Origin: Candidatus Parcubacteria bacterium
Lineage (GTDB): Bacteria; Patescibacteriota; Minisyncoccia; UBA6257; 2-01-FULL-56-20
Direction of reading: 5' to 3'
Length of the DNA stretch: 64,000 bases
Assembly (NCBI GenBank): GCA_027355945.1
Contig: DAIEHA010000002.1
Span: forward strand, 15,071 to 79,070
Shown piece after piece: positions 5,520 to 56,669 of the stretch (positions are counted from its first letter, which is position 1; each line of letters begins with the position of its first letter). Position numbers and translations under genes: made by a program. The notes under the pieces were generated by a model. The model ran no database searches and was not told where the DNA came from. It saw nothing but the letters and a program-made list of their open reading frames with translations.

Positions 5520-5595
5520 ATGGAATATTATAAAAAGTTTCAATTAAATCGTCAAAATAAGCGAGGAATACCCCTGCGCGACCTTGCACGAACGC

Positions 5596-12617: not shown

Positions 12618-13073
12618 TTAGCGCAATTGTTCCCAATATCCTTTTTCCCTAACCTTCGCTTCTATTTTCGCTTTCAGTACTGTGATATCCATAGAATCCG
12701 GAGACGGAGATGCCTCCTGTTCTGCGAGAGATGCCCGAAGAGAATCAATTTCTTTTTCAAGCGCTTCAAATTTATTACGCCGGGATGCGTCGCGATCCTC
12801 CCTCTCTTTACGAGACGCCAACCATTGATTGACTTCGAGATCCGTTTCAAGTGCTTTTTCGTGCGCGACATCAACTGGGGAGATTTTTCTCTCGAAGAGC
12901 TTTCCGGAGAGTGCTCTATCGAGAAATCCGCTGCCGTTCTTGAGATCGGCACGGAATTTGAATTCCTCATCGGATTCTTTGCGTGAACGCTGCATGCGGG
13001 CTTGCCAGGACTCCTCGCTTTCGTTGGTATGTTTCCAACTTTCCGATCCGCCCATAGGAAAATTTTGGGACAT
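12618..13073 (-). CDS. Hypothetical charged coiled-coil protein
   Basis: 151 aa, E/K/R-rich, no TM. Codon pattern consistent with coding. Confidence 0.45.
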   Translation of the reverse strand: MSQNFPMGGSESWKHTNESEESWQARMQRSRKESDEEFKFRADLKNGSGFLDRALSGKLFERKISPVDVAHEKALETDLEVNQWLASRKEREDRDASRRNKFEALEKEIDSLRASLAEQEASPSPDSMDITVLKAKIEAKVREKGYWEQLR

Positions 13074-13200
13074 AATAAAATCATATCATAAGGTCAAACT
13101 TCCTTTAGGGATATATCAAATCAGCCCCATAAAATTTATCCAAAAAATCGCTGGATCAGAGGGGTGTGCCCGAACCATCGGTTCAAATAAGAACCACTTT

Positions 13201-13240
13201 GGGTGCCTTAGTGGAGGAAGCCGGGACTTGTCTGATGAGT
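13201..13240. repeat. Conserved intergenic motif, copy B
   Basis: GGGTGCCTTAGTGGAGGAAGCCGGGACTTGTCTGATGAG; same orientation and core as copies A and C. Confidence 0.55.
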
Positions 13241-13273
13241 GGATGACGAAAAGGAGGACCTCAAGCAGGAGTT

Positions 13274-14194
13274 CTATGGGGTGATGCTAAACGGAGAGCT
13301 GAATGCGTTTGTAGCGCCATAGCCAACCACCACTTCATAGTTATTACCAGGGGGAACATTGGACGGCACTGTCCAGAGATAATTTCCTACATAGCTCCCC
13401 GTCGATGCCGGAGCATCGCTCACTATTCCGTATTGGTCGCCACTCGACGCATTTATGAGATTGATCGAAACAGTGGTCAGGCCGGAGGAGTTCCATGAGA
13501 TTCTTTCCTTTTCCCCCACCCTCCATAGCGACCCCTGGATCGGCGAGACTATCTGGATCGAGGCCTTTGATTGTGACGCATTCTTTGTGGAACCGGAGGG
13601 CGTTGTTACCGCAGGGAGGGTTGTCGAAGAAGAGGTGGCAATACTCGGTAGGATACCTCCCGAACTCGTTGTGTTTGTGGAAGATGTCGCGAGGGGATTC
13701 GCATATTCTTGAGCGATTTTTTGCTCTTGTTGCTGTGCGTATTGATTTTGTTGTCCAGTTACATAGAAACTTATCGCAAAATAAAGGGCGCACAGAACGA
13801 ATGTCGCTATGATTTTGAAGGCAACACTACTGCCGAGACGATCGGAAAAATCATCATGATTTTTCTCCGGTGGCAACGGATCGTCGCCGTATTGATTTGG
13901 GCCCGCTGTCCCAGACCGAAGGAGAAGGCCCAGAAGGAGATAGACATTGAAGACAGGGACGAGCATGGCGAGCACATACAAGCCTGATTTCCCGAGGTCG
14001 TGGAAGCGTCGGAAGGTTATAAAGATCGTAAAAATAAAAACGACGATATAAAAAAGGGATGCAACAAGCCCCGCTACAATAAAATTGGGAATAAGAACGG
14101 AAGAAATCAAATAAATACCGCCTGTAGCAACAACGGCCAATGCGACGCTCCAAATAAGGAAACGCAAACGGCCGATTCGACCTCCAATTTCCAT
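13274..14194 (-). CDS. DUF805-like membrane protein with Ser/Thr-rich linker and C-terminal extracytoplasmic beta-sandwich-like domain
   Basis: 306 aa. N-terminal RRFHDLGKSGLYVLAMLVP resembles the DUF805 (YhaH-like) family. Several TM helices, an S/T tract, and a C-terminal IQIVSPIQGSLWRVGE...YEVVVGYG domain. Confidence 0.55.
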   Translation of the reverse strand: MEIGGRIGRLRFLIWSVALAVVATGGIYLISSVLIPNFIVAGLVASLFYIVVFIFTIFITFRRFHDLGKSGLYVLAMLVPVFNVYLLLGLLLRSGTAGPNQYGDDPLPPEKNHDDFSDRLGSSVAFKIIATFVLCALYFAISFYVTGQQNQYAQQQEQKIAQEYANPLATSSTNTTSSGGILPSIATSSSTTLPAVTTPSGSTKNASQSKASIQIVSPIQGSLWRVGEKERISWNSSGLTTVSINLINASSGDQYGIVSDAPASTGSYVGNYLWTVPSNVPPGNNYEVVVGYGATNAFSSPFSITP

Positions 14195-14315
14195 GTTTTT
14201 ATTATAGCAAACGCCCTCGCCGAAAATTTTGCCCTACGCCGCATTTTTACTTATCGGTCCAAACTTGCATCAGGGTCCTCCCTGTAAGTCCCCTACAACC
14301 CATCGAATTTTGGGT

Positions 14316-14354
14316 GGGTGCCTTGATGAAGGAGGTCAGAACCTGTTCGGTGAG
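14316..14354. repeat. Conserved intergenic motif, copy C
   Basis: GGGTGCCTTGATGAAGGAGGTCAGAACCTGTTCGGTGAG. Confidence 0.5.
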
Positions 14355-14377
14355 ATAAATCCCTCTTTTGGAGAAAA

Positions 14378-14406
14378 TAAAATACCCGCCAAGCGGGTAT
14401 TTTATT
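14378..14406. terminator. Bidirectional rho-independent terminator
   Basis: AAAATACCCGC-CAA-GCGGGTATTTT perfect hairpin flanked by A and T runs, directly 3' of the stop of the minus gene at 14412. Confidence 0.55.
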
Positions 14407-14411
14407 GCTTA

Positions 14412-14753
14412 TTACTTTGTGCTCGTTGCTTGCGGGGCATTTTGATAATATCCTCGCATCATGCCGCCGGGCCCGTAATAATAGGTCGGGGCTCCCGCAG
14501 ACTGGGTGGGAGCCGCGTTTTGGCTCTGATAGTAATATCCACCCATCATCGGCATATAGCCGTAGGGATAAGGAGAGCCGCCATAATAGCCATTTTCCAT
14601 CATGCCGGGCCACATGCCATATCCGTAATAGCCAAGGGTAGTTTTGAACTCACCCACTTTGACGCCCATACAGAAGACCACGATCAAGATAAGAATGCCG
14701 AGGACCCAGCGAAGCAATTTATGATGACCGTCTTCGTGCGTATGTTCTTCCAT
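14412..14753 (-). CDS. Small Met/Tyr/Gly-rich membrane-anchored protein with His-rich N-terminus (possible metal-binding)
   Basis: ORF to 14873. The internal start MEEHTHEDGHHKLL precedes one TM, then a GYYGYGMWPGMMENGYYGG...MPMMGGYYY tail. Divergent from csoR. Confidence 0.5.
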   Translation of the reverse strand: MEEHTHEDGHHKLLRWVLGILILIVVFCMGVKVGEFKTTLGYYGYGMWPGMMENGYYGGSPYPYGYMPMMGGYYYQSQNAAPTQSAGAPTYYYGPGGMMRGYYQNAPQATSTK

Positions 14754-14810
14754 AGTAATTAATTTTTTGTTGGCGACCTTTATCCTAAGACGACAGTACA
14801 TTATGTATAA

Positions 14811-14825
14811 TACCCCTATAGGGTA
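14811..14825. promoter_or_regulatory. CsoR-type operator box 1 (TACCC-N5-GGGTA)
   Basis: Inverted repeat TACCCCTATAGGGTA overlapping a TATAAT hexamer (14806..14811). Resembles the B. subtilis CsoR box. Confidence 0.55.
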
Positions 14826-14843
14826 TACTGTCAAATACTCAAT

Positions 14844-14873
14844 TTGACACGCGATACCCAGTGGGGGTATCAT
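14844..14873 (+). promoter_or_regulatory. csoR promoter: TTGACA-N18-TATCAT with operator box 2 (14855..14869) in the spacer
   Basis: TTGACA at 14844..14849, TACCCAGTGGGGGTA inverted repeat, TATCAT at 14868..14873. Identical architecture to 21275..21304. Confidence 0.6.
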
Positions 14874-14879
14874 AAGGAT

Positions 14880-15149
14880 ATGGATAAGGTAATAAAGAAA
14901 AAAGCCTTACGAAGGCTTCAGATCGTAAAGGGGCAGATCAAAGGCCTCGAAAAAATGATCGACGATGAAAAGTATTGCATCGACGTTATTACACAATCAT
15001 CCGCTATCAAGCAGGCTCTTTCTGGCGTTGAAGATCTTTTATTAGAGAACCATCTTGCTACACATGTGGCGATGCAAATGAAGAGCGGAGAAAGTAAGAA
15101 GGCGACCGCAGAGATGGTAAAAGTATATAAGCTATCAAAGCGAATATAA
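14880..15149 (+). CDS. csoR: CsoR/RcnR-family (DUF156) metal-sensing transcriptional repressor
   Basis: RLQIVKGQIKGLEKMIDDEKYCIDVITQSSAIKQALSGVEDLLLENHLATHV matches the CsoR-family core with conserved Cys and His ligands. ORF track start is 14844; 14880 chosen (near-leaderless from the TATCAT -10). Confidence 0.8.
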   Translation: MDKVIKKKALRRLQIVKGQIKGLEKMIDDEKYCIDVITQSSAIKQALSGVEDLLLENHLATHVAMQMKSGESKKATAEMVKVYKLSKRI

Positions 15150-15150
15150 T

Positions 15151-15564
15151 ATGAGATCAGTGCTTGCGATCGTGATTATGGTGGCTGCGATCTTCGCTCT
15201 CGTGGCGGGTAGTTTCGCCATGGTCAATATGGGATCCGGCAGTCATACAAACTGTCTTGCGGCGATTCCCGGGAGTCCAAAATGTCTTGGAAGGATGGAT
15301 CTGTTTCAATTCGCAATAACGCATATTAGTACACTCCTCGGCATATCGCTCGGGATCGTCAGTCCAATAACAGCTTTTCTCTTGGCTGCGTTCGCAGTGC
15401 TCGTATGGATCGCAGTTTCTAATTCGTTCAACTTACTGTTGGGTTCCTTGGGCTATTCAAGGGTTTTTATTGAGGCAGAAATAGGTAGCGCTCGTAAGCA
15501 ACACCACTGGATCTCCCTTCTTGAGAAACGCGATCCGTCTTCGTCTTGCGCTATGAACGTCTAA
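15151..15564 (+). CDS. Hypothetical membrane protein co-transcribed with csoR
   Basis: Starts 1 nt after the csoR stop. 137 aa, three TM helices, a Cys pair (HTNCLAAIPGSPKC), and C-terminal SSSCAMNV. Confidence 0.5.
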   Translation: MRSVLAIVIMVAAIFALVAGSFAMVNMGSGSHTNCLAAIPGSPKCLGRMDLFQFAITHISTLLGISLGIVSPITAFLLAAFAVLVWIAVSNSFNLLLGSLGYSRVFIEAEIGSARKQHHWISLLEKRDPSSSCAMNV

Positions 15565-15599
15565 GCGAATCAATCTCGCCGCGTCGTTTATAGCGCCCC

Positions 15600-15622
15600 A
15601 AACCGCATCCCTGCGGTTTTTT
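15600..15622 (+). terminator. Rho-independent terminator
   Basis: AACCGCA-TCCC-TGCGGTT followed by TTTTT. Confidence 0.55.
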
Positions 15623-15822
15623 CGTTGCACATAAATTCATCGGTCTATTGCCATGCATAAAAGCAAAAAGGTCGTTATCAGTAAAACAGAGCCATTCTTC
15701 ATCATCCTGACACTTGTCGGTGCGTTCGCGTTGTTTACATAGCAAACGTTGCGGATGGCGCAATATCACATGAGTGCGCCCCCTCTCCAGTAAAGCACTA
15801 CCACTATAATCTCCCAATCCAA

Positions 15823-16314
15823 ATGAATAGAAAACCAACGTTAGAAGAGTTCCTTAAAAAAATTGAATCAACAAAAGAAAAGGCGGGCGTTGATCTGTCG
15901 ACGGCTGAAGATCTGAGCATCGCAGTCATGAACCTCATAAGCCTCGAAGAGCATTTTTTCTTCACGGGAATAAAAACGAAAAAAGATGAGTACTTCGACA
16001 CAGTGCAAGAGATCCGGGAGTTGCGTAAACAATTTCTCACGCAATTAATGCCTAAGCACGAAGGGGAAACGTGGTGCATCTCAAAACATCTTCTTTCCGC
16101 CACGATGCGCCTTATTGAAGTGGGCAATAAGTTGCAATCGGAAGGCATAAAAGAAAAAGCGAAGCAAACATTTGAAGGAGCCTATAAGGTCTACTCGATC
16201 TTTTGGGCCCTCAAATTGGATCTCGTTAATGGCAGCGAGATTAAGGAAGCGGCAAGGGGCGGCTCCGACTTAGAAACAATTATCGCTAAGATGGCCGATT
16301 GCTGCAATGAATAG
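15823..16314 (+). CDS. Hypothetical cytoplasmic protein ending in DCCNE
   Basis: 163 aa, helical and charged, no TM. C-terminal vicinal cysteines. Confidence 0.45.
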   Translation: MNRKPTLEEFLKKIESTKEKAGVDLSTAEDLSIAVMNLISLEEHFFFTGIKTKKDEYFDTVQEIRELRKQFLTQLMPKHEGETWCISKHLLSATMRLIEVGNKLQSEGIKEKAKQTFEGAYKVYSIFWALKLDLVNGSEIKEAARGGSDLETIIAKMADCCNE

Positions 16315-16331
16315 TAACAACGATAAATAAA

Positions 16332-17297
16332 ATGGAACACGAAACACATCATCACGAACAAGAAACAGAGTTAATGGAAGAGCTTCTTCCGGAGACGGTG
16401 GTAAAAAGCCATAAAAAAGACTTGTTCTTACCACTCAGTATTCTTGCAGTAGCACTGCTTATCGCTTCAGCATTCGTCTATCTTGGCAATCAGAGAACGG
16501 CATCGGGGCGCAGCACTCCTATACAAAATATCTCAGCCGCTACATTGCAGGAAAAGGTAATTCCGGCAAACGGCGTGATATTGCCGGTTCGCTGGGGCGA
16601 TCTCGGGAGGCAGCTTGTATCGGCGGGTGTCATTAATGAGCCGCAATTCCTCGCGCTCTATGCGCAGCGCGGGGGGTTATCGCCCGACATGAAGGCGCTT
16701 CTTGATAATGCAGATAATGGGAATCTCATTATTACATTGCAAAATTCCGGCACCATATTAAATCTTTTATGGGCGCTTGGCCTTGGGAACAATAATCCAA
16801 TCCTTACGAGCGGGCCCATGGAGAATCCTCAATACGGAGGCGCAAAGAACTTTGCTTCGACTGGCGGTTGGACGCTTTCAGTCGGCAATGCGATGAACCA
16901 TTATAGCGCTCATTCGTTCGTAACGCTTACCGCCGATCAGCAAGCACGTGTGGTGCGTGTCGCACAAAACATCTATCGCCCGTGCTGCGGAAACTCCACG
17001 TTATTCCCGGATTGCAATCATGGCATGGCGATGCTTGGACTCCTTGAGCTCATGGCATCGCAGGGCGTTTCGGAAGCGGACATGTACAAGGCCGCGCTCG
17101 CGGTGAATTCGTATTGGTTCCCTGATACCTATCTCACACTTGCAACCTACTTCCAAAGCCAGGGCGTCGATTGGAGTGCTGTCGACTCAAAGACGGTGCT
17201 TGGTGCTGGATATTCAAGTGCTCAAGGATACCAGCAGATAGTAAATAAAATAACTCCAGTGCAGGCGCAATCGTCGGGCGGCTGCGGGGTGCAATAA
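16332..17297 (+). CDS. Membrane-anchored extracytoplasmic protein with His-rich N-terminus and C-terminal SGGCGVQ tail
   Basis: 321 aa. MEHETHHHEQETE N-terminus, single TM, Cys-rich PCCGNSTLFPDCNHG motif. The C-terminal tail is shared with the next ORF. Confidence 0.55.
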   Translation: MEHETHHHEQETELMEELLPETVVKSHKKDLFLPLSILAVALLIASAFVYLGNQRTASGRSTPIQNISAATLQEKVIPANGVILPVRWGDLGRQLVSAGVINEPQFLALYAQRGGLSPDMKALLDNADNGNLIITLQNSGTILNLLWALGLGNNNPILTSGPMENPQYGGAKNFASTGGWTLSVGNAMNHYSAHSFVTLTADQQARVVRVAQNIYRPCCGNSTLFPDCNHGMAMLGLLELMASQGVSEADMYKAALAVNSYWFPDTYLTLATYFQSQGVDWSAVDSKTVLGAGYSSAQGYQQIVNKITPVQAQSSGGCGVQ

Positions 17298-17313
17298 CCA
17301 AAATTGAAATCTT

Positions 17314-17505
17314 ATGAAATCAACGAATGACAATTTCTGGTTATTCATAAGCATCGGATTGTTTGTAATCATCGTCGGAACTGCGGGAGCTTATGCATTT
17401 CGGTCATTCAGTACGAATGCCGTATCACAAGAGAACGCCACTGTCGTTGCGCCATCACAAACCCAAACACCTTCATCCGGCCAAAGCGGCGGATGTGGGG
17501 TCTAA
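17314..17505 (+). CDS. Small membrane-anchored peptide ending in SGGCGV
   Basis: 63 aa with one TM (FWLFISIGLFVIIVGTAGAYAF). Its C-terminus QSGGCGV parallels the upstream protein's SSGGCGVQ although encoded by different codons. Confidence 0.45.
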   Translation: MKSTNDNFWLFISIGLFVIIVGTAGAYAFRSFSTNAVSQENATVVAPSQTQTPSSGQSGGCGV

Positions 17506-17510
17506 TCGCT

Positions 17511-18374
17511 ATGGAAACAATAATCAGTACATCACTCATTGCGGCATTTATCGCAGGCATCGCGGCCTTGTTCGCGCCATGCTGCGTTACGGTGCTTCTG
17601 CCCGCATACTTCGGTTCGATCTTTCGCACGAGGCGGAAGGTGTTCCTCATGACATTCATTTTCTTCCTCGGCATCTTGACCGTATTCCTTCCGTTAGGAC
17701 TCGGTTTCTCGATGCTTGGACAGGTGTTCAGTCGTTATCATCGCGAGATCTTCACGGTCATTGGTATGGTACTTTTCGCTTTGGGAATCTCACTTCTCTT
17801 AGGAAAGAGGCTCCCTATGCCGAAATCAATGCGCCTCAAACCGGAACTCACTGGAAATGAGAACGCTGGATCAGTGTATCTTCTTGGCATCTTCTCCGGC
17901 ATCGCAACCACTTGTTGTGCGCCGGTACTCGCGGGAGCGCTCGCGCTTTCGGTGTTGCCGGGTTCGTTCATCTGGGGAATTATCTACACACTCGCCTACG
18001 TGCTCGGCATGGTGACCCCACTCTTTGTCCTTGCGGCAGCACTTGACCGGACCAAGATGTCCGAACGTCTCCTTGGCGTGCGGAAGCCGTTGGAATTCAC
18101 GCTATTCGGAAAGGCCATTCGCATGAGGATCTCCGACCTCCTTGCGGGACTGACTTTCTCGATCATGGGAGCACTCACGCTCTACTGGGCATCGATGAAT
18201 CAGGTTGCCGTGCATTCGATGTTGCAAGTGAATATCAACATCTATCTCACGCAGCTGAATAATTTCCTTACCCCCTATATCGGGTGGGTGCCGCAATACG
18301 CGTGGGCGGTCATGTTCGTCGGACTCCTCGTAGCGCTCGTGGTGCTTGCTCTCAAGCAATTCAAAAAGGACTGA
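17511..18374 (+). CDS. CcdA/DsbD-superfamily thiol-disulfide transporter-like membrane protein with vicinal Cys pairs
   Basis: FIAGIAALFAPCCVTVLLPAYF parallels the CcdA TM1 motif (SPC-x3-LLP-x-Y). GIATTCCAPVLAGAL parallels the TM4 motif. Both carry CC instead of a single Cys, as in MerT TM1. ORF track start is 17493. Confidence 0.7.
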   Translation: METIISTSLIAAFIAGIAALFAPCCVTVLLPAYFGSIFRTRRKVFLMTFIFFLGILTVFLPLGLGFSMLGQVFSRYHREIFTVIGMVLFALGISLLLGKRLPMPKSMRLKPELTGNENAGSVYLLGIFSGIATTCCAPVLAGALALSVLPGSFIWGIIYTLAYVLGMVTPLFVLAAALDRTKMSERLLGVRKPLEFTLFGKAIRMRISDLLAGLTFSIMGALTLYWASMNQVAVHSMLQVNINIYLTQLNNFLTPYIGWVPQYAWAVMFVGLLVALVVLALKQFKKD

Positions 18375-18392
18375 TTAAAAAAACATAAAACC

Positions 18393-19013
18393 ATGAAAAA
18401 AAATACATCAAACGGTACTATGGCGGTTAAAGTGATCGGCATTTTTGCTATCTCGATATTTATCCTCGGAGGTATCGCTCTACTCAGTTATGAGAACAGC
18501 GACGCAGCACCTCAGGCGGGCGCCACAGGGTCTGGTAGCTTCGGCAGTGCACTCATCGGCAAGCCCGCGCCGCAATTTTCGCTGAAAGATCGCAACGAAG
18601 TCACATACACCCCAGATAGTTTGAAAGGAAAGAATGTGATTCTTTTCTTTAACGAGGGAATTATGTGCTATCCCGCATGCTGGAATCAGATGGTCGCGCT
18701 CGCGACGGATCCTCGGTTTCAAACATCCGATACGATCGCGCTTTCCATCGTGATCGACTCTCCGGATCAATGGCAGTCGGCGATCCAGAAAATGCCGGAC
18801 CTTGGGAAGGCAACCGTTCTCTTTGACACCGATAAATCCATTTCGCAGGAATACGGGATGCTCACCGCACTATCTTCGATGCATTACGGTTCCTACCCAG
18901 GTCATTCGTTCGTGATCCTCGACAAACAAGGGATCGTCCGCTTCGTCTATGATGACCCAGCTATGGGCATTGATGACGATCGTATCGCGGCCGATCTCCA
19001 AACGTTGAAATAG
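18393..19013 (+). CDS. SCO1/SenC-like copper-binding thioredoxin-fold protein
   Basis: Signal anchor. KNVILFFNEGIMCYPACW gives a CxxxC motif after a beta strand, as in SCO proteins. Downstream HSFVILDKQGIVRFVY matches the conserved SCO His region. Confidence 0.65.
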   Translation: MKKNTSNGTMAVKVIGIFAISIFILGGIALLSYENSDAAPQAGATGSGSFGSALIGKPAPQFSLKDRNEVTYTPDSLKGKNVILFFNEGIMCYPACWNQMVALATDPRFQTSDTIALSIVIDSPDQWQSAIQKMPDLGKATVLFDTDKSISQEYGMLTALSSMHYGSYPGHSFVILDKQGIVRFVYDDPAMGIDDDRIAADLQTLK

Positions 19014-19014
19014 C

Positions 19015-19464
19015 ATGCATAGACCGATCACGAAATCCTTTATCGGAGGGTCTATTGCGACGGGCACGCTCATCGCGGCATATTTCGCAATCGTTTCCCT
19101 CATATCGGGATTTGCATTCGCCGGAAGTCAGTTTGTGGAATTCTGGTTCTACTTCGTGGGATTGGCACTCGGCTTCGGCATTCAGATCGGGCTTTACATC
19201 TATCTGAAGCAACTGGTCCGTGGCGCAAGCGGCGGGCCAGTGGTGGCGGTGACGGGGATGACCTCGACCGCCGCCATGGTTGCGTGCTGCACCCACTATC
19301 TCGTGAACATTCTGCCAATTCTTGGAATAAGCGCCTTCGCCTCATTTGTCGGCGAATATCAGGTTCAGTTCTTTTGGGTTGGTATCGCATTCAATCTTGT
19401 GGGTATCGTCTATATTGCAAGTCGAGTTATAAAAGTCAGGGGGAATATGCAGCACATTGCATGA
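19015..19464 (+). CDS. Hypothetical four-TM membrane protein, possibly the N-terminal half of a split ICMT-like methyltransferase
   Basis: 149 aa, hydrophobic. Ends 4 nt into the next ORF, in a different frame. Contains ACCTHY. Confidence 0.45.
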   Translation: MHRPITKSFIGGSIATGTLIAAYFAIVSLISGFAFAGSQFVEFWFYFVGLALGFGIQIGLYIYLKQLVRGASGGPVVAVTGMTSTAAMVACCTHYLVNILPILGISAFASFVGEYQVQFFWVGIAFNLVGIVYIASRVIKVRGNMQHIA

Positions 19465-19748
19465 ACAAATCAAATCTTGCATGGACTGTCCTCTGTGAAG
19501 CACAGAAAGAACATACGCTTGCAATCGCGGGGCCGTATGCCCGCATTCGTCATCCACAATACATGGCATTCATACTTGTTATGCTTGGGTTCCTGTTTCA
19601 GTGGCCGACCATTCTCACGCTTGCTATGTTTCCGGTACTTCTGTGGATGTATGTGCATCTCGCGCGAACCGAAGAGAGAGAAGCGCAAGCGATCTTTGGC
19701 GTGGAATGGAATGCATATGCGGCGCAAACACCCGCGTTCATTCCCTAA
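19461..19748 (+). CDS. Isoprenylcysteine carboxyl methyltransferase (ICMT/PEMT) family C-terminal catalytic fragment
   Basis: AGPYARIRHPQYMAF (the RHPxY motif) and EEREAQAIFGVEWNAYAAQTPAFIP (C-terminal EE...FG..Y..Y motif). Only ~95 aa from the ATG at 19461. Confidence 0.5.
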   Translation: MNKSNLAWTVLCEAQKEHTLAIAGPYARIRHPQYMAFILVMLGFLFQWPTILTLAMFPVLLWMYVHLARTEEREAQAIFGVEWNAYAAQTPAFIP

Positions 19749-19790
19749 TGGAAACGAAACAATAAATCATTGAAATAAAAATCAACACCT

Positions 19791-19966
19791 ATGTTCAGAA
19801 TCTTTAAGAAAAAGTGTCCGATTTGCAGGATGGCACTCGAAGAAGGAAAACAATATCCTGAGGAATTCGGTAAACAATTCTGTTCGGAAAGATGCAAGAC
19901 ACAGTATCAAGAATTAACAAATAAAAAGAAGCAATCGCAACATTCCAGCCATGGTGGGTGTTGTTA
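19791..19966 (+). CDS. YHS/TRASH-domain small metal-binding protein ending in GGCC
   Basis: Hand translation: MFRIFKKKCPICRMALEEGKQYPEEFGKQFCSERCKTQYQELTNKKKQSQHSSHGGCC. C-x2-C...C-x3-C matches the TRASH/YHS pattern. Shorter than 60 aa, so absent from the ORF track. Confidence 0.55.
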
Positions 19967-19979
19967 AGAGTTCAACGCT

Positions 19980-21278
19980 ATGCGGTTATCGTTTCTTTTG
20001 ATCGGACTCGGATTTGTCGCGGTTTTGGCCGTCGGGGGTATTTCGAGTTCTCGTGCAGTAGCTGCAACGGTGGTAGCTACGAGTACTGGCGGCAATGCTT
20101 CGCAAGTCCAGATCAATACGGATAACCAACAGATCGCAGACCTCAACCAAAAAATAGCATCCTACCAAGCGCAACTTCGGAAAGTAGGTGCGGATAAGAA
20201 AACGCTCCAAGCGGCTATTCACGCGCTCGATTTGCAACGCAGCAACGCACAAGTGCAGGTTGCCGTTACCCAACTGCAGATCAACGCAACCCAGGCCCAG
20301 ATCAAACAGTTGGGCGGAGAGATATTGGGAGCGAAGCAGACGATAGCAGGGGATCAGGCGGCGCTCGGAGAATATCTTCAAAGTCTTCAAAAAGCCGACG
20401 ATAAGCCGTTGATCGTGCAGATGCTTTCATCGGGCGGTCTTGTTCAAGCATGGGATGATATTAATGCGACAGTAAAGATGCAAACCGCCGTCCAAAATCA
20501 AATGCAGGCGCTTCGTGTCCAGGAAGACAGCCTTGCCAACTCGCAGACAGTTTCAAAACAGAAACAGGAAGCACTCACATCGCAAAAACAGGCATTGGCA
20601 TCACGGCAGCAATCGCTTATCGCGACGGAACAATCTAAAAGTCAGCTGCTCGCCGAAACCAAGTCGCAAGAATCTGCTTATCAAAAATTGCTTGCCGCGG
20701 CGCACGCGGAGCTCAGTAGCTTCTCGACGTTTACAGAGAACGCGGGCGGATCAAAACTGCTTGCCAATCAGACCAGTTGCGACTCGTGGGGCTGCTATTA
20801 TAATCAGCGTGATTCGGCATGGGGCGCTACTCCTCTTGATGGGACAAAATATACGCTTGCACGCGCAGGGTGCCTCATTGCATCCGTGGCGATGGTGCTC
20901 ACGCATTACGGGTATAAGGATGTGACGCCTGCGACCATCAACTCGAACCCCGATAACTTCGCGGGGTATTCACCCGATCTGCTGCTCGCGTCGATCGACG
21001 TTGACGGTGTGACCGTTATGCGAAAGGCCATCAGGGTGAAAGGTGCCACTGCCGCACGAAAAATTTCAGTTATTGATGCGATGCTTGCGACTGGCCATCC
21101 GGCAATCGTCGGCATGAATGCCCTCGGCGGCACGCATTTTGTCGTACTCACGAGCGGGAGCAATGGTGATTACCTCATGCGCGATCCGTATGTAGCGAAT
21201 GGTAACGGTATCAGCTTCACCTCCTATTATTCATTGAAGGAGATATATAGCATTGCGAAGATCGTGATCGGGAGTTGA
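19980..21278 (+). CDS. Secreted coiled-coil protein with C-terminal C39-like (papain-fold) cysteine peptidase domain
   Basis: Signal peptide, ~250 aa Q/A-rich coiled coil, then SCDSWGCYYNQ...AGCLIASVAMVLTHYGY...GGTHFVVL resembling Peptidase_C39_2 with its Cys and His. PcsB-like architecture. Confidence 0.55.
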   Translation: MRLSFLLIGLGFVAVLAVGGISSSRAVAATVVATSTGGNASQVQINTDNQQIADLNQKIASYQAQLRKVGADKKTLQAAIHALDLQRSNAQVQVAVTQLQINATQAQIKQLGGEILGAKQTIAGDQAALGEYLQSLQKADDKPLIVQMLSSGGLVQAWDDINATVKMQTAVQNQMQALRVQEDSLANSQTVSKQKQEALTSQKQALASRQQSLIATEQSKSQLLAETKSQESAYQKLLAAAHAELSSFSTFTENAGGSKLLANQTSCDSWGCYYNQRDSAWGATPLDGTKYTLARAGCLIASVAMVLTHYGYKDVTPATINSNPDNFAGYSPDLLLASIDVDGVTVMRKAIRVKGATAARKISVIDAMLATGHPAIVGMNALGGTHFVVLTSGSNGDYLMRDPYVANGNGISFTSYYSLKEIYSIAKIVIGS

Positions 21279-21304
21279 CAGTAAATACCCCCTAGGGGTA
21301 TCAT
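21275..21304 (+). promoter_or_regulatory. ATPase promoter: TTGACA-N18-TATCAT with CsoR-type box TACCCCCTAGGGGTA (21286..21300) in the spacer
   Basis: Same hexamers, same 18 nt spacer and same box offset as the csoR promoter. ATG lies 13 nt after the -10. Confidence 0.6.
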
Positions 21305-21316
21305 TAAGAAAATAAT

Positions 21317-23689
21317 ATGAGCCACGACCATATGCATCACAACGAAGGGGCTGTTCGGCAACCGAATTGTGCCTGCGGCAAGAAGTGTTCCGGGTGCTCT
21401 GCGGAAAAACTAGCTGTTAATTGTGGTTGTGATATGGAAGCAAAACAGTTTGAATCCGATATGGATCATTCTTGCTGCCACAATACGCATAATAAAAAGA
21501 CGAGCGCTCCGGCCGTCGCAATGAGTGCGGAGGGAGGATCATATTATACCTGCCCAATGCATCCGGACGTGAGATCGAAAGTGCCCGGTAAGTGTCCGGG
21601 GTGCGGCATGGACCTTATCCTTAAAAAGGGCGAAGTTGCTTCGCAAGGTGATCATGCAAATCATGATATGCAGGCCATGAGCCATATGGATCATGAGGCG
21701 GCGATGACGAGCCCGCAATTGGCGAAGCAGATGGAGCGGGATATGCGTCGCCGATTTTGGATTTCATTCATACTCTCGATCCCGATCTTTCTTTATTCGC
21801 CGGTCGGCACAGCAGTGTTCAAGGTCGCGCTTTGGAGCCCCATCCCAATCAATTGGCTATTATTGATCCTCACCACGCCGATCGTATTTTGGACGGGCTC
21901 GATCTTCATCACAGGGACATACTATTCCCTGAAAGCAAAAAAGCTGAACATGGCGGTGCTTATTGCGACAGGGGTGTTGGCCGCCTATCTTTTTAGCGTT
22001 CTTCTCACCGTTATCGGAAGCCCCGATACTTTTTATGAGGCAGCAGCACTTTTGGTTACCTTCGTGCTCTTTGGCCATTGGATGGAGATGAAGTCTCGGC
22101 GTGGCACTTCGGAATCTTTGCGGGCCCTATTTGATCTTGTGCCGCCAAAGGCAACGGTTATCCGCGATGGTAGGGAGATCTCGATCCCAAGCGCCGAGAT
22201 TATGCATGATGACATTGTAGTAGTGCGGCCCGGCGACAAATTACCGGTGGACGGCGTTGTGACCGAAGGCGAGAGCGCGGTTGACGAGTCGCTCGTTACG
22301 GGAGAATCAATCCCAGTCACAAAAATGATCGGCGACAAAGTCACCGGTGGATCGGTCAACCAAACAGGGACCCTTAAGTTCAAGGCGACGCAGGTGGGTG
22401 CGGAAACCGTCCTCGCGCAGATCATTAAGCTCGTTGAGACGGCCCAGAATTCCAAAGCGCCGGGTCAGCGCCTTGCCGATCGCGCTGCTGGCTGGCTCGT
22501 TATCTTGGCCGTTGGTTCGGGTATCGTGACATTTCTTGGCTGGTATTTTTGGGGCCACACAGGATTCATCACTGCGCTGACATTCGCCATTTCAGCAGTG
22601 GTGATCGCGTGTCCGGATGCTTTGGGGCTTGCGACGCCGACCGCCGTGGCGGTGGGTACTGGTATCGGGGCAAAACATAATATCCTCATTAAAGATGCCG
22701 CGACACTAGAGAACACTTCCAAGTTGAATGCGGTTGTGCTCGATAAAACAGGGACGTTGACGGAAGGGAAGCCAAAGGTAACCGATATTGTTCCACTGAA
22801 TGGTTTTAACGAAGAAGATGTCTTGCGGTATGAGGCGAGCATTGAAAACAATTCCAATCATCCGGTTGCAAAGGCTATCGTGGACGAGGCCGCCAAGCGT
22901 GGCGTTTCTCTCGTGGAGTCTTCGCAATTCGAATCTATCCCTGGCTATGGCATAAAGGCGACCATCCTTGGCAAGCGGGTACTCGCGGGGAATGAACGAT
23001 TGATGACAACGAATGGCGTGGATGTGGTGTCGGCGAGGATGACCATCGACAAGCTTGCGAACGAAGGGAAGACGATCAGCCTGCTTTCCATCGATGAGAA
23101 GATCGCAGGGGTTACCGCCGTCGCCGATACCGTGCGCCCAAGCGCGAAACAGGCGATCAAACGACTCCAAGACCTCGGTATCGAAGTGGCGATGATAACG
23201 GGTGATCATAAAGTCGTCGCGGAAGCGGTCGGAAAGGAGCTTGGCATCAATCGTGTTTTTGCAGAAGTGCTCCCTAAAGATAAAGCGAGTTATGTGAAGA
23301 AACTGCAGGACGAAGGAAAATTTGTTGCGATGGTGGGCGATGGTGTGAATGACGCTCCGGCGTTGGCGCAATCGGACATCGGTATCGCGATCGGCGCGGG
23401 TACTGATGTAGCGATCGAGACCGGTAACATAGTGCTTATGAAATCCGATCCGAACGATATTGCCTCGGCAATCATCCTGAGCAAAGCAACGGTTGCTAAA
23501 ATGAAGCAGAATCTTTTCTGGGCGGCAATCTATAACGTGTCCGCGATTCCCGTTGCGGCAGGCGTATTCGCAGGGATCGGTATCACGCTCCGTCCGGAGA
23601 TTTCGGCGCTCCTAATGTCCGCGTCATCTATTATTGTTGCCACCAATGCGGTGCTCTTAAAGAGAGTCGAAAGTAAGCTTAAAAGCTAA
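21317..23689 (+). CDS. copA: Heavy-metal (Cu+-type) P1B ATPase with N-terminal His/Cys-rich metal-binding region
   Basis: DKTGT phosphorylation site, GDGVNDAP hinge, TM7 YN and TM8 MSASS (P1B-1 Cu+ signature). TM6 motif is CPD rather than CPC. N-terminal [10 protein letters not shown]...GKCPGCGM metal-binding domain plus His-rich stretches. Confidence 0.92.
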
Positions 23690-23723
23690 AAGGTCGCGAG
23701 GTAAATAATTAATTACTATTACA

Positions 23724-23972
23724 TTGCTTTCACTTAAACGGTATGGATGGCTCTGCGTGCTTGGTATCGAAGTGGCCTATGTTGGCTGCATGATCTATCG
23801 CTTTTTCCTGAACGGCGCGGCTCTTAGCTTGCATGCATCACTCTTTGAACTCCTTCCAGGATTTTCATGGGGAATTGGCGGCATGGTCATCGGTGCAATA
23901 GACCTCTTTATCTTTGCATGGATTTTTGCGTGGTACATGGTCTGGATGCACAATACGAGCATCCAGAAATAG
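23724..23972 (+). CDS. Small hydrophobic protein, hypothetical
   Basis: 82 aa, two TM segments. Weak. Confidence 0.3.
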   Translation: MLSLKRYGWLCVLGIEVAYVGCMIYRFFLNGAALSLHASLFELLPGFSWGIGGMVIGAIDLFIFAWIFAWYMVWMHNTSIQK

Positions 23973-24025
23973 TGGTGGATTTCTCCCACATGTCCACACT
24001 TATAAAATGCCCTTTCGGGGGCATT

Positions 24026-24496
24026 TTAATTTGCAGGCACTATTTTTTCATTACGCCAATTTCTAATACATAAATCTCCCCATCCGTGGCCGAACCACAG
24101 GGCGAGGAATACAAGAACATAAATGACTGCCGCTCCGATGTCCGTCGACCCCGCAGTGTACGGGCCACCGAATCCTTCGGCGGTGGACCAGATGACGAGA
24201 CTCATTGCGATACCACCCCACGTTGCGACGCGTGACGCGATGCCGAAGATGAGCGCAAGAGCAATTGCTGTTTCTGCAGTTGCAACGAGTAGTGCAAAAA
24301 GCCCCGGGTTTACTCCTATTATATGAATCCAAAGTGTGATCCAATTTTTAACGAGCAGTGGCTGGCCGTCGAGGTTCCCCGAGAGATAACTCGTAAAGTT
24401 TGTGAAGAAATCTGGCTGCCATTTGAAATAAGCGTCAATTCCCCAAATGGCGCCGAAAGCGATTCGGAGCCATGCGAACTTACGCTGGTCGGTCAT
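24026..24496 (-). CDS. DoxX-like small membrane protein (inferred)
   Basis: 156 aa, four TM, Trp-rich. Family assignment is tentative. Confidence 0.4.
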   Translation of the reverse strand: MTDQRKFAWLRIAFGAIWGIDAYFKWQPDFFTNFTSYLSGNLDGQPLLVKNWITLWIHIIGVNPGLFALLVATAETAIALALIFGIASRVATWGGIAMSLVIWSTAEGFGGPYTAGSTDIGAAVIYVLVFLALWFGHGWGDLCIRNWRNEKIVPAN

Positions 24497-24628
24497 GATT
24501 TTATTTTACCTTATCCGGAGGTGCATTAAAATCAATATGCATTCATGCTTAAACCAGCCCATTATTTTAAATGAGAGGCTTGGACCTGCAAAAACGCAGA
24601 TGATATAAAGGAATCAAGAACGTTGTAC

Positions 24629-24653
24629 GCTCAAAATCCAACAGGGGGGTGCC
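24629..24653. repeat. tRNA-His 3' end plus trailer; right copy of the direct repeat
   Basis: Matches 12560..12583. Confidence 0.6.
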
Positions 24654-24719
24654 TAACGGGAATCGAACCCGTATCATCGGAGCCACAATCCGAGGCTCTA
24701 CCATTAAGCTATAGGCACC
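24648..24719 (-). tRNA. tRNA-His (GUG) with encoded G-1
   Basis: Manual fold: G-1 plus acceptor GTGCCTA/TAGGCAC, D stem GCTT/GAGC, anticodon stem TCGGA/TCCGA, loop TTGTGGC (anticodon GTG), T arm ACGGG-TTCGATT-CCCGT, discriminator C. Confidence 0.85.
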
Positions 24720-24813
24720 ATCATGGATGCCGCGTCCTGCGCCGCGAGTATCCGCATACATAATCTACACGGAATCGGCTGTTTTTTCAACATTTTTGGA
24801 GTATGATTGACCC

Positions 24814-32310: not shown

Positions 32311-32465
32311 GTGAACAAGGATTAGAATACGGCATTCTTCCTGAAAATGAAAGTATTGACAATATACAATTTATATATTATCATATATGCTTAGTAGCAC
32401 CATTACGTCCGCGGAGACGGAAAACCCGCATATGATGCCGCCGCAAGCGCATCGCGAGGAGGAGT

Positions 32466-43279: not shown

Positions 43280-43393
43280 GGTTCCTCCTCTGTTCTTCGC
43301 GCCGTCGTGCTGCGCTACTACATTATATATCATATATAATATATTTTGTCAAATATCACGGTATGGGTTAGGATAAAGGTCGTGGTACTGTCT

Positions 43394-56555: not shown

Positions 56556-56669
56556 TATACCACCCGCATATCGCCCGTCCGCAGTGTGTTTCGCGCGGGC
56601 GGCGCCGGCGCCGGCATGCGCAGCCCGGATTCATTGACACCCTTCGGACAAACACCTATATTCCAGGTG

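What the first reader, a model, noticed from the sequence alone, without database searches (positions are those of the whole stretch)
14806..21316. CsoR-family regulon with two promoters of identical architecture (TTGACA - N6 - TACCC-N5-GGGTA - TATCAT)
Three inverted repeats of the form TACCC-N5-GGGTA are present: 14811..14825, 14855..14869 and 21286..21300. The latter two sit at exactly the same offset inside 18 nt spacers between TTGACA and TATCAT hexamers, upstream of csoR and of the P1B ATPase. The box sequence (ATACCCC..GGGGTAT) resembles the B. subtilis CsoR operator. Both start codons lie only 5-7 nt beyond the predicted transcription start, so the transcripts would be near-leaderless. 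Box 1 overlaps a perfect TATAAT and faces the divergent Met/Tyr-rich gene, which suggests a shared bidirectional control region. The regulator has a C-H-H ligand pattern (no second Cys), so its metal specificity (Cu versus Ni/Co) is not settled.
Basis: partly seen in the sequence, partly recalled or inferred. Interest (0 to 1): 0.55.

Follow-up and report, generated by a model that had tools for sequence, protein, structure and literature searches.

The report
Copper-repressor (CsoR) promoter-operators in a Patescibacterium
The three palindromes are real, canonical binding sites of a CsoR-type copper repressor that sit inside three promoters controlling the repressor itself, a copper-export pump and a methionine-rich membrane protein; this is a sound but ordinary regulon of a known kind, found here in an uncultured Patescibacterium.

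Summary
Exactly three TACCC-N5-GGGTA boxes lie at the stated coordinates, where chance predicts none. Each box sits in the spacer of a near-consensus sigma-70 promoter, and its last TA is the first TA of the -10 hexamer. The gap from TTGACA to the box is 5 nt, not 6.

The box matches the published type-2 CsoR operator. The regulator is a PF02583 protein with an x-C-H-H motif and the Tyr/Glu second shell of Cu(I)-sensing CsoRs. In 82 of 87 independent Patescibacteria loci the same box precedes csoR, and in 68 of those 82 the ATG starts 10-16 nt after it. That spacing points to a conserved leaderless csoR transcript. A P1B ATPase with a Cu-type TM4 motif (CPC, CPH or CPD) lies nearby in nearly all loci, so Cu(I) is the likely inducer, though this is unproven.

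A conserved terminator follows the second gene, and the ten genes at 15823-21278 have no box. Leaderless, spacer-embedded CsoR-family operators are already documented experimentally. Verdict: a new member of a known kind. The side leads are more novel: a CPD-motif pump and a very large orphan-fold protein family linked to these operons.

The parts
14376..14406 (.). Palindromic hairpin with a 14-bp stem and flanking A/T runs, just past the stop of the Met/Tyr-rich gene. Likely a bidirectional terminator that closes the divergent unit.
   Evidence: Terminator scan.
14412..14753 (-). Met/Tyr/Gly-rich small membrane protein of 113 aa. It has a His-rich N-terminus (MEEHTHEDGHH), one TM helix and a Met/Tyr/Gly-rich tail. 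Proposed extracytoplasmic Cu(I)-binding protein and regulon member through box 1.
   Evidence: ORF. No Pfam or NCBIfam match. A small family of 10 clusters. It is always next to csoR: divergent in L083-86 and directly downstream of csoR in L091, L093 and L095.
14807..14834 (-). Divergent promoter: -35 TTGACA (14834..14829), 16-nt spacer, -10 TATTAT (14812..14807). Box 1 fills the spacer and shares TA with the -10.
   Evidence: Promoter scan, 11 of 12. Both hexamers are conserved in L083-86, whereas the + strand TATAAT is not.
14811..14825 (.). CsoR box 1, TACCCCTATAGGGTA (extended ATACCCCTATAGGGTAT, 14810-14826).
   Evidence: Conserved in L083-86.
14844..14873 (+). csoR promoter: TTGACA (14844-14849), 18 nt, TATCAT (14868-14873).
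   Evidence: The same layout occurs in L081, L082 and 82 of 87 loci.
14855..14869 (.). CsoR box 2, TACCCAGTGGGGGTA. Its last TA is the first TA of the -10.
   Evidence: The identical box is present in L081.
14880..15149 (+). csoR, 89 aa, x-C33-H58-H62 with second-shell Y32 and E78. The ATG is the 7th base after the -10, so the mRNA is predicted to be leaderless.
   Evidence: Pfam PF02583. Alignment A1. PDB sequence matches to CsoRs 4m1p, 3aai, 4adz and 2hh7. Homologues are mostly 89 aa.
15151..15564 (+). 137-aa membrane protein of unknown function, translationally coupled to csoR (TAA-T-ATG). Second gene of the csoR unit.
   Evidence: Conserved directly after csoR in L001, L081 and L083-86, and one gene further downstream in L082. 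No family match.
15600..15625 (+). Intrinsic terminator (AAACCGC-loop-GCGGTTTTTT) that ends the csoR unit.
   Evidence: Fold -13.1 kcal/mol, z -3.0. Stem and T-run are conserved with variable loops in L081, L083 and L085.
15823..21278 (+). Ten accessory genes without a CsoR box: g163, g321, g63, a CcdA/DsbD_TM protein, a thioredoxin-like redoxin, TM149, an ICMT/PEMT-like protein, a 58-aa zinc-ribbon protein and a coiled-coil/C39-like protein. They are functionally linked to the copper locus, but direct CsoR control is not shown.
   Evidence: No box. They recur with csoR and the ATPase in varied orders.
21275..21304 (+). ATPase promoter: TTGACA (21275-21280), 18 nt, TATCAT (21299-21304).
   Evidence: The same layout occurs in L001, L003, L033 and L081.
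21286..21300 (.). CsoR box 3, TACCCCCTAGGGGTA. The core is identical to the S. lividans copZA1 and copZA2 operator cores.
   Evidence: PMC3902906.
21317..23689 (+). P1B-type heavy-metal ATPase, 790 aa. It has a Cys/His-rich N-terminus plus an HMBD domain, TM4 motif CPD, N-x6-YN-x4-P and P-x6-MSASS-x5-N. Predicted leader about 6 nt.
   Evidence: Pfam. TIGR01511 Cu-ATPase, 576 bits against a cut-off of 397. Motifs. The MSHD start is shared with L003.
23724..23972 (+). 82-aa protein with two TM helices (weak DUF5676 match), downstream of the ATPase. Probably co-transcribed with it.
   Evidence: Near the ATPase in 8 loci.

Best explanation
This is the copper-efflux regulon of a Patescibacterium (Paceibacteria/Parcubacteria-like), controlled by an autoregulated CsoR-family repressor.

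Proposed mechanism. Apo-CsoR, probably as two tetramers per site as in S. lividans, binds a type-2 operator (ATACCC-N5-GGGTAT). The operator lies between the -35 and -10 hexamers of three sigma-70 promoters and overlaps the -10 by its terminal TA, so it blocks RNA polymerase. Metal binding at C33/H58'/H62' (most likely Cu(I)), coupled through Y32 and E78, releases the repressor.

Three units would then be derepressed:
1. A leaderless csoR-TM137 transcript that ends at a conserved terminator.
2. A P1B ATPase (plus a small 2-TM protein) with a leader of about 6 nt.
3. A divergent Met/Tyr-rich membrane protein.

Shown here: the sites, their promoter context, their conservation, the family assignment and the gene linkage. 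Inferred: binding, repression, the inducing metal and the transcription start sites.
For: - Statistics. There are three exact boxes against 0.00 expected. The three promoters that carry them are the only 11-of-12 promoters in 12 kb.
- Operator identity. The boxes match the published type-2 CsoR consensus, whose TAC/GTA dyad is required for binding (PMC3902906).
- Regulator. PF02583. C33, H58, H62, Y32 and E78 are invariant and align at a constant offset of 3 with Mtb CsoR C36, H61, C65, Y35 and E81.
- Comparative genomics. In 82 of 87 independent loci a box precedes csoR. The -35 matches TTGACA at 5 or more of 6 positions in 61 of 82, the spacer is 15-18 nt in 73 of 82, and the in-frame ATG starts 10-16 nt after the box in 68 of 82. 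About 1 strict box would be expected in 1.22 Mb of equiprobable sequence (my estimate), against 61 found.
- Independent ATPase promoters with the same layout occur in L001, L003, L033 and L081.
- Copper link. 77 of 80 loci carry a P1B ATPase next to csoR, with TM4 motifs CPC, CPH or CPD. The window's pump passes TIGR01511. A sister clade of canonical C-H-C CsoRs has the same operator and promoter layout. Ten C-H-H regulators pair with CPC-motif pumps, eight of them with an HMA-like MxCxxC motif.
- Experimental precedents. Bradyrhizobium csoR is leaderless with its box over the -10 (PMC5057107). Mesorhizobium NreA has its operator in the -35/-10 spacer and a leaderless transcript (PMC12724321).
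- The literature regards x-C-H-H CsoRs as likely Cu(I) sensors (PMC8643695; PMC11672702).
Against: - No binding, expression or 5'-end data exist for this organism.
- The Z-position His gives a harder ligand set. T. thermophilus CsoR, the only characterised x-C-H-H member, responds to several metals in vitro (as cited in PMC5057107), and its Cu(I) specificity is 'not yet unequivocally evaluated'.
- The pump has CPD rather than CPC or CPH in TM4. CPD pumps are uncharacterised (PMC5552934).
- No CopZ-like chaperone gene was seen in the locus.
- The 18-nt spacers are longer than the 17-nt optimum.
- The ATPase start is 13 nt after the -10, so it is short-leadered rather than leaderless.
Confidence: 0.85

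Rival explanations
1. The regulator senses Ni(II)/Co(II) or Zn(II) (RcnR-, DmeR- or InrS-like) and the pump exports that metal. The His-for-Cys change at position Z shifts selectivity away from Cu(I).
For: The X-Y-Z ligands C-H-H are those of RcnR (PMC11672702). T. thermophilus CsoR responds to several metals in vitro. The CPD pump is uncharacterised. All 29 CPH or CPD pumps pair with C-H-H regulators and none with C-H-C regulators.
Against: - The W-position N-terminal His of RcnR is absent and not conserved.
- The operator is type 2, not the RcnR/FrmR type 1.
- The second-shell Tyr and Glu typical of Cu(I) CsoRs are invariant.
- The TM5 and TM6 motifs of the pump are of the Cu type, and it passes the TIGR01511 Cu-ATPase cut-off.
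- Ten C-H-H regulators pair with CPC-motif pumps, eight of them with an HMA-like motif.
- The NCBIfam RcnR score is far below its cut-off (38 against 138).
- The pairing of Z with pump type rests on a single evolutionary change in Z (Fitch count 1).
Confidence: 0.1
2. The boxes are not operators of this CsoR. They could be promoter-associated palindromes bound by another factor, or simply sequence carried along with a shared promoter type.
For: No binding data exist. The outer TAT of the box doubles as the start of the -10, so part of its conservation could reflect promoter function.
Against: - The G/C tracts and TAC/GTA dyads are not promoter elements, yet they are conserved next to csoR in 82 of 87 genomes and in front of separate ATPase genes.
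- They match the sites that purified CsoRs bind in other phyla.
- The other TTGAC-type promoters in the window lack the box.
Confidence: 0.03
3. The genes are not leaderless. Transcription starts at upstream promoters (for example the + strand TATAAT at 14806-14811), and the hexamers next to the boxes are not used.
For: A perfect TATAAT lies 68 nt upstream of the csoR ATG. A purine-rich AAGGA precedes the csoR ATG.
Against: - That TATAAT has no -35 partner in the scan and reads CATAAT in relatives.
- AAGGA ends 1 nt before the ATG, too close to act as a Shine-Dalgarno site, and it is absent in L081.
- The box-to-ATG distance is held at 10-16 nt in 68 of 82 loci.
- In L081 the preceding gene ends 32 nt before csoR.
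- Other TTGAC-type promoters in the window also abut long ORFs.
Confidence: 0.07

Closest known systems
Type-2 CsoR operators and regulons of Streptomyces lividans, Bacillus subtilis and Corynebacterium glutamicum (csoR, copZA)
   Same: The operator is the same (ATACCCC-N3/5-GGGGTAT, TAC-N9-GTA). The core of box 3 is identical to the S. lividans copZA1 and copZA2 cores. The repressor is autoregulated and the target is a P1B Cu ATPase (PMC3902906; PMC5057107).
   Different: Those regulators use C-H-C ligands, whereas this one uses C-H-H. No copZ was seen here. The pump has CPD and an HMBD domain instead of CPC and HMA. The host is an uncultured Patescibacterium.
Thermus thermophilus CsoR (PDB 3aai; x-C-H-H, SSN cluster 17)
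   Same: The HLxxHV ligand motif aligns. The Tyr/Glu second shell is shared, and the neighbouring gene is a Cu ATPase (PMC8643695).
   Different: The T. thermophilus protein has an extra N-terminal His5, which is absent here. Sequence similarity is no higher than to C-H-C CsoRs (51 bits against 54 bits for Geobacillus CsoR), so placement in the same cluster is untested.
Bradyrhizobium liaoningense csoR-cueA divergon
   Same: The CsoR box overlaps the -10 elements, csoR mRNA is leaderless by 5'-RACE, and a divergent partner gene is co-regulated (PMC5057107).
   Different: There, one box serves two overlapping promoters and the regulator is C-H-C. Here, two back-to-back promoters each have their own box (centres 44 bp apart), and the pump has a third box 6.4 kb away.
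Mesorhizobium NreA (CsoR/RcnR family, Ni sensor)
   Same: A dyad operator fills the -35/-10 spacer, and the transcript is leaderless and autoregulated (PMC12724321).
   Different: NreA belongs to the H-C-H-C clade (PMC8643695), is shown to respond to Ni, and controls different efflux genes (nreXY).
E. coli RcnR
   Same: The family is the same (PF02583), and the X-Y-Z ligands are C-H-H.
   Different: RcnR needs the N-terminal His3 (W position), binds type-1 sites and controls rcnA. None of these applies here.

Membership tests
CsoR/RcnR family (PF02583, DUF156) | Significant match to the family profile over the whole ~90-aa three-helix protein | tested here: met
   PF02583, E 2.3e-23, 82.8 bits against a cut-off of 22.8. 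PDB sequence matches to four CsoR structures at E 1e-12 to 1e-13.
Canonical Cu(I)-sensing CsoR (SSN clusters 1 and 23) | x-C-H-C ligand motif (Cys36, His61, Cys65 in Mtb numbering) | tested here: not met
   The Z position is His62, and the protein has a single Cys. A sister clade in Patescibacteria does have C-H-C (38 of 87).
Canonical Cu(I)-sensing CsoR (SSN clusters 1 and 23) | Second-shell Tyr35 and Glu81 coupled to the ligand His | tested here: met
   Y32 and E78 are invariant in 33 of 33 aligned sequences and 87 of 87 loci.
x-C-H-H CsoR (T. thermophilus type, SSN cluster 17) | C-H-H motif with the Tyr/Glu second shell and a CopA neighbour | tested here: met
   The motif and second shell are present. 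A P1B ATPase lies nearby in 77 of 80 loci. Placement in the published SSN cluster itself was not testable with these tools.
x-C-H-H CsoR (T. thermophilus type, SSN cluster 17) | Cu(I)-dependent release from DNA | not testable with these tools
   This needs EMSA or ITC with purified protein.
RcnR-type Ni/Co sensors | H-C-H-H motif with an N-terminal His (W position) | tested here: not met
   The N-terminus is MDKVIKKK, and no His is conserved in the first 10 residues of the clade.
RcnR-type Ni/Co sensors | Type-1 operator (TACT-G6-N-AGTA, from my own knowledge of the family) rather than type 2 | tested here: not met
   The boxes are TAC-N9-GTA with split C and G tracts, which is type 2.
CstR persulfide sensors | x-C-x-C dithiol pair | tested here: not met
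   The protein has only one Cys.
FrmR formaldehyde sensors | Pro2-C-H-x motif | tested here: not met
   Residue 2 is Asp. The NCBIfam FrmR score is 41 against a cut-off of 133.
Type-2 CsoR operator | TAC-N9-GTA dyad flanking C and G tracts, located at the promoter of csoR and of the pump gene | tested here: met
P1B-1 Cu(I) ATPase (CopA) | TM4 motif CPC | tested here: not met
   The motif is [10 protein letters not shown].
P1B-1 Cu(I) ATPase (CopA) | TM5 N-x6-YN-x4-P and TM6 P-x6-M-xx-SS-x5-[NS] | tested here: met
   Both motifs are present. TIGR01511 scores 576 bits against a cut-off of 397.
P1B-3 ATPase (CopB) | TM4 CPH and TM6 MSxST | tested here: not met
   The pump has CPD and MSASS. This resembles the 'CPD + MSGSS' subtype noted in Rhizobiales (PMC5552934).

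The most novel reading that the evidence does not exclude
The locus is one example of a Patescibacteria-wide envelope copper-handling system that goes beyond CsoR plus pump.

Its components would be:
- A C-H-H sensor clade that alone partners the CPH and CPD pumps.
- A CcdA/thioredoxin-like reducing pair.
- A Met/Tyr-rich membrane protein.
- Several proteins that end in Cys tails.
- The g163-g321 gene pair.

g321 belongs to a family of more than 7,300 clusters. It has an invariant RPCCGN...FPDCNHG motif, no Pfam family and no PDB fold match. It would be a new kind of extracytoplasmic copper-binding or copper-processing protein.
Probability: 0.35. Interest if true: 0.6.

Novelty: new member of a known kind. 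Interest (0 to 1): 0.3.

Why it matters
Patescibacteria are almost entirely uncultured, and very little is known about how they regulate genes. This locus, together with 80-odd relatives, gives a cleanly predictable repressor-operator-promoter module. It comprises a TTGACA -35, a canonical CsoR box fused to the -10, and a leaderless start.

The module could be tested in a heterologous host. It could also be used to read copper stress in metatranscriptomes, or as a compact metal-inducible switch.

The comparison shows that C-H-C and C-H-H CsoRs are sister clades with the same DNA site. That makes them a natural pair for asking what the Cys-to-His ligand change does to metal selectivity.

The regulon itself is not surprising to a specialist.

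Tried and rejected
- Degenerate boxes. I searched with 1-2 mismatches. No copy has one mismatch, and two-mismatch copies are at chance level.
- Rfam scan of the whole window. It found only tRNAs, so there is no riboswitch or known RNA in the region.
- The + strand TATAAT at 14806-14811 as a promoter. Rejected: it has no -35 partner, it faces the wrong way for the divergent gene, and it is not conserved.
- A leaderless start for the divergent gene at ATG 14801 (an in-frame, open extension of 16 codons that is also present in L083-86). Judged less likely: the ATG begins only 5 nt (window) or 4 nt (relatives) after the -10, and gene callers start at 14753. Not excluded.
- Recent duplication as the cause of the identical architecture of the two + strand promoters. 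Rejected: outside the hexamers and box arms the two promoters differ (cgcga against gtaaa; agtgg against cctag).
- RcnR, FrmR, CstR and InrS assignments. Rejected on their ligand motifs (see the membership tests).
- tblastn of the Met/Tyr-rich protein against the 80 loci found nothing. The protein database search found only 10 clusters.
- Pairing of the Z ligand with the pump's TM4 motif. It looked striking (C-H-C with CPC in 32 of 32; all 29 CPH or CPD pumps with C-H-H), but the Z change maps to a single branch (Fitch count 1). It is therefore a lead, not statistical evidence.
- Fold search of g321 against the PDB. No match.
- One look-up (P0001) failed for technical reasons.
- Literature searches found no paper on CsoR regulation or on leaderless transcripts in Patescibacteria in the held library. 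This is absence in that library only.

Full report
**Observation**

They are the only exact matches in the 64 kb window. None is expected by chance: the mean was 0.00 in 100 dinucleotide-preserving shuffles. No copy has one mismatch, and two-mismatch copies are at chance level (16 against 12.6).

A consensus promoter scan of 13000-25000 found three sites scoring 11 of 12, and every one contains a box:

| Promoter | Strand | -35 | Spacer | -10 |
|---|---|---|---|---|
| csoR | + | TTGACA 14844-14849 | 18 nt | TATCAT 14868-14873 |
| ATPase | + | TTGACA 21275-21280 | 18 nt | TATCAT 21299-21304 |
| Divergent gene | - | TTGACA 14834..14829 | 16 nt | TATTAT 14812..14807 |

In all three, the last TA of the box is the first TA of the -10 hexamer.

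However, it points towards csoR, has no -35 partner, and reads CATAAT in relatives. The minus-strand hexamers are conserved in those same relatives.

**Genes**

- csoR is 14880-15149 (89 aa; PF02583, E 2e-23).
- It is translationally coupled to a 137-aa membrane protein (15151-15564).
- That gene is followed by an intrinsic terminator at 15600-15625. Its stem and T-run are conserved, with variable loops, in L081, L083 and L085.
- Ten genes follow at 15823-21278. They include a CcdA/DsbD_TM protein, a thioredoxin-like redoxin, an ICMT-like protein, a C39-like protein and several unannotated proteins. None has a box in front of it.
- The P1B ATPase is 21317-23689, followed by a small 2-TM protein (23724-23972).
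- The divergent gene (14753..14412) encodes a 113-aa protein with a His-rich N-terminus, one TM helix and a Met/Tyr/Gly-rich tail.

The direct regulon is therefore three short units, not the whole 14806-21316 span.

**Organism and regulator**

CsoR homologues are overwhelmingly from Patescibacteria (Paceibacteria/Parcubacteria) and are mostly 89 aa long, which fixes the start at ATG 14880. The same contig exists in ENA (ERZ27236853, 107.8 kb).

In an alignment of 33 homologues, Y32, C33, H58, H62 and E78 are invariant. They align at a constant offset of 3 with Mtb CsoR Y35, C36, H61, C65 and E81. So the motif is x-C-H-H, with the second-shell Tyr and Glu of Cu(I)-sensing CsoRs and no N-terminal His.

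The literature describes this motif for T. thermophilus CsoR (SSN cluster 17). It treats such proteins as probable Cu(I) sensors because of the conserved second shell and CopA neighbours, while noting that specificity has not been unequivocally evaluated (PMC8643695; PMC11672702).

**Operator identity**

The published type-2 CsoR consensus is ATATACCCCTNAGGGGTATAT, with an essential TAC-N9-GTA dyad. The S. lividans copZA1 and copZA2 cores are TACCCCCTAGGGGTA, identical to box 3 (PMC3902906).

**Comparative test**

A scan of one genome per GTDB species returned 80 csoR loci, nearly all titled as Patescibacteria lineages (a handful of MAG records carry other names). Strict boxes occur 61 times in 56 of those loci. 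For comparison, about 1 would be expected in 1.22 Mb of equiprobable sequence (my estimate).

After adding close relatives from metagenomes and removing duplicates, 87 independent loci remained. Results:

| Feature | Count |
|---|---|
| Loci with a box immediately upstream of csoR | 82 of 87 |
| -35 matches TTGACA at 5 or 6 positions | 61 of 82 |
| -35/-10 spacer of 15-18 nt | 73 of 82 |
| First in-frame ATG begins 10-16 nt after the box (modes 10 and 12) | 68 of 82 |

A distance of 10-16 nt after the box is about 6-12 nt after the -10 hexamer. The window's value is 10, which places A14880 at the canonical +1. This conserved spacing, together with the lack of a usable Shine-Dalgarno site, is strong indirect evidence for a leaderless csoR mRNA.

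The ATPase ATG lies 16 nt after its box, so its leader is about 6 nt. In L081 and L033 the pump is exactly leaderless, at 10 nt. Other TTGAC-type promoters in the window also abut long ORFs, so leaderless starts seem common in this genome.

**Copper link**

- 77 of 80 loci carry a P1B ATPase beside csoR. The TM4 motifs are CPC (44), CPH (20) or CPD (5, including the window).
- The window's pump has the Cu-type TM5 and TM6 motifs, an HMBD domain, and passes the TIGR01511 Cu-ATPase cut-off.
- CPD pumps have been noted bioinformatically in Rhizobiales but are uncharacterised (PMC5552934).
- Where the pump is separated from csoR (L001, L003, L033, L081), it has its own TTGAC(A/G)-N5-box promoter, as in the window.
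- The Met/Tyr-rich protein is a small family of 10 clusters. It is always attached to csoR, either divergently (L083-86) or as the gene directly after csoR (L091, L093, L095). This supports its place in the regulon.

**Ligand variation**

Among the 87 loci, 49 regulators are Y-C-H-H-E and 38 are Y-C-H-C-E. The two types form sister clades separated by a single change. They share the same operator and promoter layout.

| Regulator type | Pump partners |
|---|---|
| C-H-C | CPC only (32 of 32 assignable) |
| C-H-H | CPH 23, CPD 6, CPC 10 |

This supports a copper function for the C-H-H clade. The pairing of harder sensor ligands with CPH or CPD pumps is an interesting lead, but it rests on one evolutionary event.

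**Mechanism and precedents**

The best explanation is steric repression. Apo-CsoR occupies the promoter spacer and -10, Cu(I) binding releases it, and the repressor is autoregulated.

Both the spacer-embedded operator and the leaderless transcript have experimental precedents in this family. Bradyrhizobium csoR-cueA has its box over the -10 and a 5'-RACE-mapped leaderless csoR (PMC5057107). Mesorhizobium nreAXY has a dyad operator in the -35/-10 spacer and a leaderless mRNA (PMC12724321).

The finding is therefore correct and well supported, but it is a new member of a known kind. I found no paper on CsoR regulation in Patescibacteria in the held library.

**Rivals**

- A Ni/Co/Zn sensor is not excluded. 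It is disfavoured by the missing W-position His, the type-2 operator, the Tyr/Glu second shell and the Cu-type pumps.
- A non-CsoR factor binding the boxes is very unlikely given their co-occurrence with csoR.
- Upstream promoters with long leaders are disfavoured by the conserved box-to-ATG spacing and by L081, where the preceding gene ends 32 nt before csoR.

**Side leads**

- The accessory genes recur with csoR and the pump in many genomes, in shuffled orders.
- g321 (16332-17297) belongs to a very large and strongly conserved Patescibacteria family: more than 7,300 clusters, with 55-80% identity among the top hits. It has no Pfam or NCBIfam model. It carries an invariant RPCCGN...FPDCNHG motif and a GGCGV tail.
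- A confident AlphaFold model of g321 (pLDDT 81, pTM 0.76) has no PDB fold match (best E 1.9).
- Three g321-centred loci, chosen only for contig length, all place it between csoR and a P1B ATPase.
- Five proteins of the cluster end in Cys-containing tails.

These are the more novel features of the region, but they lie outside the finding as given.

Noticed in passing
window 16332-17297 (+); also L096, L097, L098: g321 has a His-rich N-terminus, one TM helix and an ectodomain of about 250 aa with an invariant RPCCGN...FPDCNHG motif and a C-terminal GGCGV tail. The family has more than 7,300 clusters in Patescibacteria and no Pfam or NCBIfam model. A confident AF2 model (pLDDT 81) has no PDB fold match. 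It sits between csoR and a P1B ATPase in 3 of 3 loci chosen independently of csoR, and within 10 kb of csoR in about 23 of 87 csoR-centred loci, usually paired with g163.
   Followed up: partly
window 21317-23689 (+); L003, L006, L030, L043, L081, L082: The pump has CPD instead of CPC or CPH in TM4, combined with P1B-1-like TM5 and TM6 motifs. Four of these pumps (window, L003, L081, L082) share a Cys-rich N-terminal motif (NCxCGKxCxxCSxExLxVNCGC) before the HMBD domain. The window, L003, L081 and L082 pumps share the stretch [22 protein letters not shown] before the first TM helix, L006 has a partial version and L030 only the core. A CPD subtype was noted bioinformatically in Rhizobiales (PMC5552934) but has not been characterised.
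   Followed up: partly
87 csoR loci (L001-L095 and the window): C-H-C and C-H-H CsoRs form two sister clades in Patescibacteria with the same operator. C-H-C regulators pair only with CPC pumps (32 of 32). All 29 CPH or CPD pumps pair with C-H-H regulators. The Z change maps to one branch, so this is suggestive only.
   Followed up: yes
window 15823-16314, 16332-17297, 17314-17505, 19791-19967, 15151-15564: Five proteins of the cluster end in Cys-containing tails: ..DCCNE, ..GGCGVQ, ..GGCGV, ..HGGCC and ..SSSCAMNV. These may be metal-binding tails or sorting or modification signals.
   Followed up: no
window 17493-19013 (+): A CcdA/DsbD_TM membrane protein is followed by a secreted thioredoxin-fold protein with a C-Y-P-A-C (CxxxC) motif. 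The pair recurs near csoR and the pump in other genomes. It may supply reducing power outside the cell during copper stress, or keep Cys motifs such as that of g321 reduced.
   Followed up: no
window ~14000-24000; tRNA at 24648-24718 (-): The copper locus has lower G+C (0.45-0.52) than the rest of the window (0.55-0.62) and ends near a tRNA gene. It may be a horizontally acquired island.
   Followed up: no
window 32356-32384 (+) and 43352..43322 (-): Two further TTGACA-type promoters have AT-rich repeats (ATATA...TATAT) filling the spacer. Both are followed by TAGTAGC(A/G)C. They may share another regulator or be strong constitutive promoters.
   Followed up: no
window 56634-56662 (+), 5555..5525 (-): TTGAC-N-TAnnnT promoters lie 5-7 nt upstream of the ATG of long ORFs (159 aa and a 609-aa FtsH-like protein). 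This suggests that leaderless mRNAs are common in this genome and not specific to the copper regulon.
   Followed up: partly
window 14799-14801 (-): An upstream in-frame ATG would add 16 codons to the Met/Tyr-rich gene. It is open and conserved in L083-86, and lies 4-5 nt after the -10. An alternative leaderless start cannot be excluded.
   Followed up: partly
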